Source: the human T2T-CHM13v2.0 reference genome, Homo sapiens
Reading direction: 5' to 3' (one strand)
NCBI RefSeq assembly: GCF_009914755.1
Contig: NC_060939.1
DNA: 64,000 bases
Positions 399 to 61,462 of this stretch are shown here, piece by piece. The notes under the pieces are model-generated. The model saw only the letters and a program-made list of their open reading frames with translations. It made no database searches and was not told where the DNA came from. Within the stretch, counting starts at the first letter, position 1. Each line of letters opens with the position of its first letter. The position numbers were made by a program, and so were the translations under genes.

Positions 399-9238
<8,840 letters not shown>

Positions 9239-10300
9239 TAATAGCAGAATGCAGCTTCCCTTCGCTTAGGAGTCTGGGTTCCAGGGCTTACATCTATCTT
9301 CCCATGTCCTTGGAGAATCCCCTGCAGATGACTGTAAGAGGTGTTTCTTCCTAGGGCAGAGAAAGATGGCACTATCAGAAGGAATACATTCATATGTCTA
9401 AAGTCTTGCCAGAGCTGGCCTGCCTTTCCATGTGCTCCGAGTGGCCTTCTAAGGTAGCACAATCTTCAGTAAATAGACTTTGCAAAAACTGCTTTTCTGG
9501 TTGACTTCCAGGGCAGCCCCAGGAAGCAGCAGAGAATAAAAGTACTGTCTGCCCCTCTCCCACCTCCTCCAAATCCGATCCCATTTAACTTCCCTGGCCA
9601 ATGTTGCACAGTGAGTCCGAACCATATAGGAGAGCTGGAGTTCGAGAGGATCTAAAGACAAGTCACCATCCTGCTTGAAGGCAACAAAAAGCCTCTGTCC
9701 AGCTGGTCGCAGCTGATCTCCCCCAGTATCTCCGCAGTCCTTCCCGAGGCCTTCTGCGTCCGCCCCGCCCCCTCGGGCTGCACAACTCCCAAAGCCCACC
9801 CCAGGCAAAAATCACGTCCAGAATCTCGGGTCTTTGTTTTCCCCGCGTAGTAGTAGCCGCTCAGCAAGGATTAGGGAGCTACCTGTCGGAAAACCTCGCG
9901 CAAGGAGAGAAGCTGGTTTTGGCTCCAAAGCGAGGACCATGGGGGCTTGGGGAGAGTCACATTGGGCAGGAGAGACGGAATCCGAGGAGCAGTAGTAACG
10001 GGCTTCCTGAGGACGGGCTCGGGTGTCGGCCAGAGGCTCCAGGTGCTGCCGGTTCGCGGACGCAGAGCTCTCAGCCCAAGGAGCAGCGGCTGCGGGATTC
10101 TGGCCTCTTTTGTCTCCGCTCCCTCCGGCCGGGTAACCCGGAGCCGTCGTGCGGTCCCTCCAGAGGCCTCTGACCCGGCTAAGGCGCCCTGAGGGCGCCC
10201 TCCAGCCCACCCCTGGGAGCGTCTCCCTCTCGAGCTGCCCCTCAACCCCCTCGCATCCTTGCCTCCGGGCCAGCCTCACCCACTCGGGGTCCGACCCTGA

Positions 10301-10342
10301 CCCCGGCCCCGGCCCCGGCCCCGGCCCCGGCCCCGGCCCCGG
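10301..10342 (-). repeat. Hexanucleotide repeat (CCCCGG)7, i.e. GGGGCC-type on the - strand
   Basis: Seven perfect CCCCGG units read directly. Confidence 0.97.
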
Positions 10343-10372
10343 CTCTCCAGCCTCCCAAGTACAGCTCCCAAA

Positions 10373-10380
10373 CCGGAAGT
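10373..10380 (+). promoter_or_regulatory. ETS/GABPA motif CCGGAAGT
   Basis: Exact consensus match in the CpG island. Confidence 0.75.
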
Positions 10381-10407
10381 CCGAGCGGGCGGCTCGGGGC
10401 ACCGAGG

Positions 10408-10417
10408 GCGCATGCGC
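10408..10417. promoter_or_regulatory. NRF1 palindrome GCGCATGCGC
   Basis: Exact palindromic consensus. Confidence 0.8.
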
Positions 10418-10490
10418 GAGGGCAGCGACCGCGACTCAGTCTCCGCAGAGCCCGGGCGGGAGTAGCTGGTGGACCCCGTTGAGCTGCCGA

Positions 10491-10498
10491 ACTTCCGG
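10491..10498 (-). promoter_or_regulatory. ETS/GABPA motif (ACTTCCGG), opposite orientation
   Basis: Exact reverse-complement of the consensus. Confidence 0.7.
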
Positions 10499-10691
10499 GA
10501 CTCCCCCGCGACCCCTTCCCAGCTTCCCGTCCGCTCCGCCGCAGCGATTGTCTCGGTGGGTTGATTCGGCACAAACCGCCCGACCCAGGGGCCGGTGCGC
10601 GTGTGGAAGGGGAAGCACTCCCCTCGTGGTCGCCTGGAGGTGCGCTGGAGGAGGGGGTGACATAACCAGGGACTCGAGGTCCGCCGTGGGA

Positions 10692-44549
<33,858 letters not shown>

Positions 44550-46717: not shown

Positions 46718-61462
<14,745 letters not shown>

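What the first reader, a model, noticed from the sequence alone, without database searches (positions are those of the whole stretch)
10242..10413. C9orf72-like GGGGCC repeat in the ZSCAN29 leader with a CUG codon 24 nt upstream in the poly-GA frame
Seen: (CCCCGG)7 at 10301-10342 reads as GGGGCC units on the ZSCAN29 sense strand. The - strand reads GAG CTG TAC TTG GGA GGC TGG AGA GCC GGG GCC..., so a CUG (10364) sits exactly 8 codons (24 nt) before the first GGGGCC, in the Gly-Ala frame. A second CUG (10350) in a strong context (AGG CTG G) opens the Gly-Arg frame, and an AUG at 10413 is also in that frame. The Gly-Pro frame is open too. Established: at C9orf72, poly-GA translation starts at a CUG 24 nt upstream of the repeat, the repeat lies in a bidirectionally transcribed CpG island, and G4C2 forms G-quadruplexes. 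Inference: this locus may be a short natural analogue that makes GA/GR/GP dipeptide micropeptides, tunes translation or promoter activity, and could be an unrecognised expansion locus. The 24-nt match may be coincidence.
Basis: partly seen in the sequence, partly recalled or inferred. Interest (0 to 1): 0.82.

Follow-up and report, generated by a model that had tools for sequence, protein, structure and literature searches.

The report
Short GGGGCC repeat in ZSCAN29 leader
A real, perfect seven-unit GGGGCC repeat sits near the start of the ZSCAN29 messenger RNA, but its likeness to the disease repeat in C9orf72 is about what chance predicts, and nothing yet shows that it does more than an ordinary GC-rich promoter repeat.

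Summary
The sequence observation holds. A perfect 43-nt CCCCGG/GGGGCC tract lies at 10301-10343. On the ZSCAN29 sense strand, a CUG at 10364 is in the Gly-Ala frame, 24 nt before the first full GGGGCC. A second CUG (10350) and an AUG (10413) are in the Gly-Arg frame. The Gly-Pro frame is open.

In the same genome, C9orf72 has its CUG at the same distance and frame. This match is at chance level. Among 32 other independent loci with at least 4 GGGGCC units, CTG fills 18 of 960 Gly-Ala-frame codon positions. That predicts about 0.6-0.8 loci with CTG at exactly -24, and one is seen.

Several points weaken the analogy:
- AUG 10413 lies upstream of the RefSeq start site (10380).
- The Gly-Pro frame has no AUG or CUG before the repeat.
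- CUG 10364 lacks the +4 G.
- The two annotated start sites diverge, so only ZSCAN29 transcribes the repeat.
- Seven units is far below the ~30 that one model of repeat-assisted initiation requires.

Two points favour it. The tract is the sixth-longest found in this assembly. A cap-proximal CUG is used at C9orf72.

Best reading: an ordinary slippage-born repeat in a CpG-island bidirectional promoter. It predicts a G-quadruplex 41 nt from the cap that may mildly damp or redirect translation. Translation, polymorphism and expansion could not be tested here.

The parts
10301..10343 (-). Perfect GGGGCC/CCCCGG hexanucleotide tract, 7.2 units; nt 38-80 of the RefSeq ZSCAN29 mRNA
   Evidence: TRF; sequence; 0 matches in 100 shuffles; mRNA positions
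10362..10364 (-). CUG in the Gly-Ala frame, 24 nt before the first full GGGGCC; mRNA nt 17-19; G at -3, U at +4
10242..10364 (-). Gly-Ala-frame upstream ORF: 40 codons plus TGA; contains (AG)7
   Evidence: translation
10348..10350 (-). CUG in the Gly-Arg frame; mRNA nt 31-33; A at -3, G at +4; 10 nt before the first full GGGGCC
10276..10350 (-). Gly-Arg-frame upstream ORF from CUG 10350: 24 codons plus TGA; contains (RG)7
10242..10256 (-). First AUG of the mRNA (nt 125): a 4-codon mini-uORF (MRGG, then stop) in the same frame as the Gly-Ala ORF
10373..10380 (-). ACTTCCGG at the very 5' end of the RefSeq mRNA. I recall it as an ETS-type motif. Annotated ZSCAN29 start site = 10380
   Evidence: motif position; start site from the annotation supplied with the finding; motif name recalled
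10408..10417 (.).
   Evidence: sequence; motif name recalled
9883..10380 (-). ZSCAN29 exon 1, entirely 5' untranslated (coding starts at 9238 in exon 2)
   Evidence: annotation supplied with the finding
9600..11100 (.). CpG island spanning both start sites: GC 0.65, CpG observed/expected 0.69 overall; GC 0.765 at the repeat; GC skew changes sign across the promoter

Best explanation
This is an ordinary microsatellite that arose by replication slippage. It is a perfect 43-nt GGGGCC tract in the untranslated first exon of ZSCAN29, 38-80 nt from the annotated cap. It sits at the GC peak of the CpG-island bidirectional promoter shared with TUBGCP4.

Its most likely effect is structural and modest. 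As RNA, it is predicted to form a four-layer G-quadruplex or a hairpin just downstream of two near-cognate CUG codons. Such a structure would slow scanning ribosomes. It could also favour low-level initiation at those CUGs, giving short upstream ORFs that end 19 and 7 codons after the repeat and so damp ZSCAN29 translation. As DNA, it adds to the G-richness of the sense strand downstream of the start site.

The identical 24-nt spacing and frame of the CUG at C9orf72 is a coincidence. It is not a sign of a shared, selected mechanism.

Shown: the sequence, frames, spacing, predicted folds, genomic rarity and chance level. Inferred: any effect on translation or transcription.
For: The repeat is perfect and far beyond chance.

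Chance level of the CUG match:
- A CTG in an open Gly-Ala frame lies within 45 nt upstream in 11 of 34 independent GGGGCC loci with at least 4 units. A CTG in any of the three frames lies within 30 nt in 17 of 34.
- CTG fills 18 of 960 Gly-Ala-frame codon positions in the 32 other loci. The any-frame rate is 68 of 2816.
- This predicts 0.6-0.8 loci with CTG at exactly -24. One is observed.

Context is typical of the class: 24 of 34 loci have CpG-island-like flanks. Here GC is 0.765 at the repeat, CpG observed/expected is 0.77-0.78, and the GC skew changes sign across the promoter.

Structure:
- There are seven G4 runs and 10 overlapping quadruplex motifs at mRNA nt 41-86.
- ViennaRNA with quadruplexes allowed gives -56.5 kcal/mol for the tract, against -31.0 as a hairpin.

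Published mechanism of the same kind:
- Unresolved G-quadruplexes in 5' UTRs promote 80S formation on upstream start codons and repress the main ORF (Murat 2018, PMC6307142, abstract read).
- GC-rich repeats in 5' UTRs impede scanning (review PMC10027321, passages read).

Repeat-assisted initiation at C9orf72 rises with repeat length. One structural model requires about 30 repeats (preprint PMC13733864, passages read).
Against: - The tract is unusually long for its class. It is the sixth-longest perfect GGGGCC tract among the 40 places found in this assembly, and the tool states that such counts are lower bounds.
- At C9orf72, cryptic intron-initiated mRNAs use the CUG even when it is only 8 nt from the cap, although with 70 repeats (PMC12358909, passages read). 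The 16-nt cap-to-CUG distance here is therefore no bar to initiation. The ZSCAN29 5' end does resemble those templates.
- CUG 10350 has the full purine -3 / G +4 context.
- The first 150 nt of the mRNA fold no better than composition predicts: -91.8 against -81.4 +/- 11.3 kcal/mol for 200 mononucleotide shuffles.
- I could not examine start-site, ribosome-footprint, population or cross-species data. A real function is therefore not excluded.
Confidence: 0.7

Rival explanations
1. Native, regulated upstream ORF of the C9orf72 or FMR1 type. Ribosomes start at CUG 10364 (Gly-Ala frame) and/or CUG 10350 (Gly-Arg frame), helped by the repeat structure just downstream. This sets ZSCAN29 protein output in a way that depends on repeat length and on stress. 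It also yields short peptides containing (AG)7 or (RG)7.
For: - Two CUGs lie 24 and 10 nt before the first full GGGGCC, both in open frames with defined stops.
- CUG 10350 has A at -3 and G at +4.
- A G-quadruplex is predicted.
- Murat 2018 links 5' UTR quadruplexes to translated repressive uORFs.
- Spacing and frame are the same as at C9orf72.
Against: - The spacing match is at chance level.
- CUG 10364 lacks the +4 G, and context mutation abolished C9orf72 products.
- Seven units is far below the lengths at which repeat dependence is seen.
- No paper in the library pairs ZSCAN29 with uORF: 0 hits.
- ZSCAN29 does not occur in the one supplementary file of Murat 2018 that is held as text.
- Per the annotation, two other ZSCAN29 transcripts have exon-2 forms reaching only to 9387 or 9670. 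These may start downstream of the repeat.
Confidence: 0.12
2. DNA-level regulatory repeat. The tract acts in the promoter by excluding nucleosomes, forming a G-quadruplex or R-loop on the ZSCAN29 sense strand, or binding GC-box factors. Its length would then tune transcription of ZSCAN29 and/or TUBGCP4 as an expression-associated repeat.
For: - The tract lies 38-80 bp downstream of the ZSCAN29 start site and about 95-137 bp upstream of the TUBGCP4 start site, at the GC maximum of the island.
- The sense strand is G-rich.
- RefSeq marks 10067-10348 as a silencer and 10449-10568 as an enhancer (annotation supplied with the finding).
- The review PMC10027321 describes GC-rich repeats near start sites that shape chromatin and expression.
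Against: No data were available here on repeat length against expression. The core promoter motifs (ACTTCCGG, GCGCATGCGC, GGGCGG) lie outside the tract. The RefSeq 'silencer' interval is 282 bp and is not specific to the repeat.
Confidence: 0.2
3. Unrecognised expansion-prone locus. The pure tract is polymorphic, and rare long alleles could silence the shared promoter or produce dipeptide-repeat proteins, with disease consequences.
For: - The tract is pure and 43 nt long, sixth-longest of its class in this assembly.
- The two loci of similar or greater length for which I saw population ranges in a paper are variable. He 2016 reports C9orf72 at 2-23 units and an RGS14 intron repeat at 4-15 units (PMC4865132, passages read).
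- The tract is transcribed and lies in a CpG island, as known GC-rich expansion loci do.
Against: - Only one haplotype could be examined.
- In He 2016, 16 of 20 other GGGGCC loci showed no variation, and no large expansion was found at any of 28 genes.
- ZSCAN29 and TUBGCP4 are not named in that paper's main text. Its supplement could not be read.
- No paper in the library links either gene with GGGGCC or with repeat expansion.
Confidence: 0.04

Closest known systems
C9orf72 intron 1 GGGGCC repeat with CUG-initiated poly-GA translation
   Same: - Same repeat unit on the sense strand.
- CTG in the Gly-Ala frame exactly 24 nt before the first full unit.
- Purine at -3.
- CpG-island-like flanks.
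- Similar tract length in this assembly: 53 against 43 nt.
- Short capped leader, like the cryptic intronic C9orf72 mRNAs.
   Different: - +4 is U here and G at C9orf72.
- The repeat is in an annotated 5' UTR exon, not an intron.
- Only one strand carries an annotated transcript through the repeat.
- The Gly-Ala frame stops 19 codons after the repeat.
- No expansion is known.
- The spacing match is at chance level.
G-quadruplex-associated repressive upstream ORFs in human 5' UTRs (Murat 2018, PMC6307142)
   Same: A strong predicted RNA quadruplex lies in the 5' UTR directly downstream of upstream start codons. The main ORF lies far downstream.
   Different: The start codons here are near-cognate CUGs, and no ribosome-profiling evidence was available. 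ZSCAN29 was not found in the one supplementary file held as text.
Other short GGGGCC repeats in human genes (He 2016, PMC4865132), for example the RGS14 intron repeat
   Same: Same class. He 2016 counted 344 intragenic loci with at least 2 units and proposed them as candidate expansion sites. Most lie in GC-rich DNA.
   Different: This locus is longer than most, lies in a 5' UTR next to the cap, and was not among the genes named in that paper's main text.
FMR1 5' UTR CGG repeat with near-cognate upstream initiation
   Same: A GC-rich repeat in a 5' UTR inside a CpG-island promoter, with near-cognate codons just upstream. It is proposed to regulate the main ORF at normal lengths. I recall the primary study. 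From the review PMC10027321 I saw only general passages on 5' UTR repeats and FMR1.
   Different: Different unit (CGG against GGGGCC) and far fewer units here. There is no evidence of translation, variation or disease at this locus.

Membership tests
C9orf72-type RAN-translated GGGGCC locus | GGGGCC units on the sense strand of a transcribed region | tested here: met
   The - strand reads GGGGCC. The tract lies inside RefSeq exon 1 of ZSCAN29, per the annotation supplied with the finding.
C9orf72-type RAN-translated GGGGCC locus | CUG in the Gly-Ala frame 24 nt upstream, no intervening stop | tested here: met
   The spacing equals that of C9orf72 in the same assembly. It is expected by chance in about 0.6-0.8 of 32 loci.
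C9orf72-type RAN-translated GGGGCC locus | Strong start context: purine at -3 and G at +4 (Tabet 2018) | tested here: not met
   CUG 10364 has G at -3 but T at +4. CUG 10350, in the Gly-Arg frame, does have A at -3 and G at +4.
C9orf72-type RAN-translated GGGGCC locus | Expanded tract (more than about 30 units) supporting repeat-dependent initiation in all frames | tested here: not met
   7.2 units in this assembly. The preprint's structural model requires about 30.
C9orf72-type RAN-translated GGGGCC locus | Both strands of the repeat transcribed | not testable with these tools
   The annotation shows divergent start sites (10380 on -, 10438 on +) and no + strand transcript through the repeat. 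No transcript data were available.
C9orf72-type RAN-translated GGGGCC locus | Dipeptide-repeat products detected | not testable with these tools
   No proteomic or ribosome-profiling data were available. 0 papers pair ZSCAN29 with uORF.
5' UTR RNA G-quadruplex | At least four G-runs of 3 or more, with loops of 1-7 nt | tested here: met
   Seven GGGG runs with 2-nt loops and 10 overlapping motifs at mRNA nt 41-86. The predicted quadruplex fold is -56.5 against -31.0 kcal/mol for the hairpin. This is a prediction only.
Near-cognate upstream ORF | Near-cognate start in the leader with an in-frame stop before the main ORF | tested here: met
   40-codon and 24-codon frames with TGA stops inside exon 1.
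Near-cognate upstream ORF | Ribosome initiation at the start codon | not testable with these tools
   No ribosome-profiling data were available.
CpG-island bidirectional promoter | Divergent start sites less than 1 kb apart within a CpG island | tested here: met
   Start sites are 58 bp apart, by the annotation. GC is 0.72 and CpG observed/expected 0.78 over 10000-10700. No TATAAA or CCAAT occurs in 10000-10800.
Polymorphic or expandable tandem repeat | Length variation among individuals | not testable with these tools
   Only one human assembly is held.

The most novel reading that the evidence does not exclude
The cap-proximal CUGs plus (GGGGCC)7 form a native counterpart of the C9orf72 initiation module. 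Ribosomes would start at CUG 10364 and/or 10350 because the repeat structure holds them there. ZSCAN29 output would then depend on repeat length and on stress. Healthy cells would make short peptides containing (AG)7 or (RG)7, and rare long alleles would make true dipeptide-repeat proteins from a normally spliced, capped mRNA.
Probability: 0.06. Interest if true: 0.6.

Novelty: new member of a known kind. Interest (0 to 1): 0.3.

Why it matters
If the CUGs were used, ZSCAN29 would offer a natural, non-pathogenic mRNA for studying how GGGGCC structure and a nearby near-cognate codon cooperate at short repeat lengths. The locus would also be worth adding to expansion screens. As it stands, this is one more GC-rich repeat in a promoter and 5' UTR. 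The striking 24-nt match does not need a functional explanation. Existing public CAGE, ribosome-profiling and long-read repeat catalogues could settle the question cheaply.

Tried and rejected
- Literature. ZSCAN29 with GGGGCC gave 2 papers; judged from titles and abstracts alone, neither concerns this locus. TUBGCP4 with GGGGCC gave 0. ZSCAN29 with 'tandem repeat' gave only a paper that lists ZSCAN29 among genes with duplicated GGAA motifs near the start site. ZSCAN29 with uORF gave 0. A search with eSTR, both gene names and 'repeat expansion' was swamped by 'estr...' words and gave nothing relevant. A broad search for genome-wide GGGGCC surveys was mostly noise.
- The supplement of He 2016 could not be read. 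I therefore cannot say whether this locus is in their list of 344.
- Rfam gave 0 matches at E up to 1 in 9500-11200.
- Exceptional RNA stability is rejected. The first 150 nt fold at -91.8 kcal/mol, against -81.4 +/- 11.3 for 200 mononucleotide shuffles, about 0.9 SD.
- I first took the 16-nt cap-to-CUG distance as an argument against initiation.
- The built-in control of the whole-genome pattern search (the pattern read backwards) is uninformative. Reversed GGGGCC is a rotation of the same repeat.
- Alu origin of the flank: a 14-15-nt exact match to Alu copies is too short to call.
- Cross-species conservation and population variation could not be tested. No other vertebrate genome or second human haplotype is held.

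Full report
**What is there.** The window is human chr15, by the annotation supplied with the finding. Tandem Repeats Finder reports a single array in 9500-11200. It spans 10301-10343, has period 6 and 7.2 copies, is 100% matching, and has unit CCCCGG. On the - strand, the sense strand of ZSCAN29, it reads GCC(GGGGCC)6GGGG. With up to 2 mismatches, (GGGGCC)3 matches six overlapping places in the window, all inside this tract. It matched none of 100 dinucleotide-preserving shuffles. The repeat is real and far beyond chance.

**Reading frames on the sense strand.**
- From CTG 10364, the Gly-Ala frame gives LYLGGWR(AG)7VRVGPRVGEAGPEARMRGG, which is 40 codons, and stops at TGA 10244-10242. This stop explains the finding's left coordinate.
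- From CTG 10350, the Gly-Arg frame gives LES(RG)7QGRTPSG, which is 24 codons. ATG 10413 is in the same frame.
- The Gly-Pro frame is open through all 166 codons of exon 1. Its first ATG or CTG is at 10273, downstream of the repeat.
- With the RefSeq start site at 10380, CUG 10364 is mRNA nt 17, CUG 10350 is nt 31, and the first GGGGCC is nt 41. The first AUG is nt 125 (10256-10254). That AUG opens a four-codon mini-ORF in the Gly-Ala frame.
- ATG 10413 is outside the annotated transcript. It sits in the middle of the palindrome GCGCATGCGC (10408-10417), in the 57-bp spacer between the ZSCAN29 and TUBGCP4 start sites.
- The mRNA begins with ACTTCCGG (10380-10373). GGGCGG boxes lie at 10387 and 10454. 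No TATAAA or CCAAT occurs in 10000-10800. I recall these as ETS-, NRF1- and SP1-type motifs typical of TATA-less CpG-island promoters; the names come from no call.

**Context.**
- The island spans about 9600-11100, with GC 0.65 and CpG observed/expected 0.69. GC peaks at 0.765 over the repeat.
- GC skew on the + strand is negative over 10100-10500 and positive from 10600. Each gene's sense strand is therefore G-rich downstream of its own start site.
- The two start sites diverge. The repeat is inside the ZSCAN29 transcript and about 95-137 bp upstream of the TUBGCP4 start.
- No annotated transcript crosses the repeat on the + strand.

**Comparison with C9orf72 and the rest of the genome.**
- The window's own assembly (3.1 Gb, 24 contigs) could be searched. 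(GGGGCC)5 matched 29 overlapping places and (GGGGCC)4 matched 71. I collapsed these by eye into 40 places. The tool states that such counts are lower bounds.
- I fetched about 200 nt on each side of all 40 places.
- By perfect tract length, this locus (43 nt) ranks sixth. Ahead of it are two X-linked copies (59 and 53 nt), C9orf72 (53 nt), a chr16 locus (52 nt) and a chr5 locus (50 nt).
- At C9orf72 in this assembly, the sense strand has CTG exactly 24 nt before the first GGGGCC in the Gly-Ala frame.

**Is the match more than chance?**
- Grouping paralogous copies by their 45-nt flanks left 34 independent loci.
- An open-frame CTG in the Gly-Ala frame lies within 45 nt upstream in 11 of 34 and within 90 nt in 14 of 34. 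A CTG in any of the three frames lies within 30 nt in 17 of 34.
- In the 32 loci other than C9orf72 and this one, CTG fills 18 of 960 Gly-Ala-frame codon positions (1.9%). The rate per position in any frame is 68 of 2816 (2.4%).
- The expected number of loci with CTG at exactly -24 is therefore about 0.6-0.8. One is observed.
- Lowering the threshold toward the 344 intragenic loci with at least 2 units reported by He 2016 would raise the expectation further.
- The figure 24 also depends on counting to the first full GGGGCC. The perfect tract starts 3 nt earlier.
- CpG-island context is not a special likeness either: 24 of 34 loci have GC of at least 0.55 and CpG observed/expected of at least 0.6 in their flanks.

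**What the C9orf72 literature adds.**
- Tabet 2018 (PMC5764992, passages read) shows that the CUG 24 nt upstream starts poly-GA. It lies in a 'perfect Kozak' context (G/A at -3, G at +4), and mutating that context abolishes the products. Output falls with shorter repeats.
- Here CUG 10364 has G at -3 but U at +4. CUG 10350, in the Gly-Arg frame, has A at -3 and G at +4.
- A 2026 preprint (PMC13733864, passages read) reports a kissing-loop contact between the repeat hairpin and 18S rRNA segment ES9S. Its model estimates that about 30 repeats are needed to reach it. Seven units would not.
- Against my reading: a 2025 paper (PMC12358909, passages read) found capped C9orf72 mRNAs that start inside the intron. 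A reporter with a 32-nt leader still depended on the CUG, only 8 nt from the cap, with 70 repeats. The 16-nt cap-to-CUG distance at ZSCAN29 is therefore no exclusion. The ZSCAN29 5' end does look like those templates.

**Structure.**
- The tract has seven GGGG runs with 2-nt loops. Ten overlapping quadruplex motifs span mRNA nt 41-86.
- ViennaRNA predicts -56.5 kcal/mol for the tract with quadruplexes allowed and -31.0 as a hairpin.
- The first 150 nt as a whole are not exceptional for their composition: -91.8 against -81.4 +/- 11.3 kcal/mol in 200 mononucleotide shuffles.
- Murat 2018 (PMC6307142, abstract read) describes the general mechanism this arrangement fits. Unresolved quadruplexes in 5' UTRs promote 80S formation on upstream start codons and repress the main ORF.
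- ZSCAN29 and TUBGCP4 do not occur in the one supplementary file of that paper held as text.
- The review PMC10027321 (passages read) summarises how GC-rich repeats in 5' UTRs impede scanning and how repeats near start sites shape chromatin.

**Expansion potential.**
- The idea that other GGGGCC loci might expand is in print. He 2016 (PMC4865132, passages read) found 344 intragenic loci with at least 2 units and assayed 28 genes in 199 patients and 136 controls.
- They saw no variation at 16 of 20 loci, a 4-15-unit range at an RGS14 intron repeat, and no large expansion outside C9orf72.
- ZSCAN29 and TUBGCP4 do not occur together with GGGGCC in any relevant paper of the library. The He 2016 supplement could not be read.
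- Because slippage rises with pure tract length, I infer that this 43-nt tract is probably polymorphic. This could not be tested, because only one haplotype is held.

**Verdict.**
The exact spacing match is at chance level. One frame has no start. The Gly-Ala CUG has a weaker context. The repeat is short and transcribed on one strand only.
- I commit, at 0.7, to an ordinary slippage-born promoter and 5' UTR repeat. Its likely effect, if any, is a modest structural one on scanning, on upstream initiation, and on the G-rich sense strand of the promoter.
- A native regulated uORF (0.12), a DNA-level expression-tuning repeat (0.2) and an expansion-prone locus (0.04) remain open. Public data that I could not reach would test them cheaply.

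Noticed in passing
window 10348-10361 (+): A 14-15-nt string in the flank just upstream of the repeat (ZSCAN29 sense), which contains CUG 10350, matches many masked Alu copies in the window exactly (for example 4102-4115, 7740-7753, 14356-14369, 31011-31025, 57403-57416). It is too short to call an Alu relic, yet unlikely for a random 14-mer.
   Followed up: partly
window 10170-10847 (+): The + strand frame that reads the repeat as Pro-Gly is open for 225 codons. It runs in frame into the TUBGCP4 start codon at 10692. A TUBGCP4 transcript starting upstream of the repeat would encode an N-terminal extension. None is annotated.
   Followed up: no
window 10242-11216 (-): The Gly-Ala frame on the - strand stays open for 324 codons back to an ATG at 11216, antisense to TUBGCP4 exon 1 and intron 1. 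This is probably just the scarcity of stop codons in GC-rich DNA.
   Followed up: no
G000 chrX:152578101-152578154 and chrX:152627036-152627083 (L047, L048): The longest (59 nt) and joint second-longest (53 nt) perfect GGGGCC tracts found in the assembly form an inverted pair about 49 kb apart with near-identical (at most 5 of 45 nt differ) upstream flanks. This is presumably a segmental duplication. They differ by one unit.
   Followed up: partly
G000 chr19:838691, 839939, 841181 (L040-L042); chr10:47223082, 47704422, 48414984, 48880659 (L026-L029): GGGGCC tracts recur at 1242-bp spacing on chr19, which suggests a tandem array of a longer unit. On chr10 they occur in four copies with near-identical flanks.
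   Followed up: no
G000 chr16:773927-773974 (L036): An 8-unit perfect GGGGCC tract (52 nt) has a CTG 12 nt upstream in the Gly-Ala frame, plus CTGs 2 and 23 nt upstream in the Gly-Pro frame. Its flanks have low CpG observed/expected, 0.35.
   Followed up: no
window 10100-10900: GC skew changes sign across the bidirectional promoter. Each gene's sense strand is G-rich downstream of its own start site. I recall this pattern as typical of R-loop-prone CpG-island promoters.
   Followed up: partly
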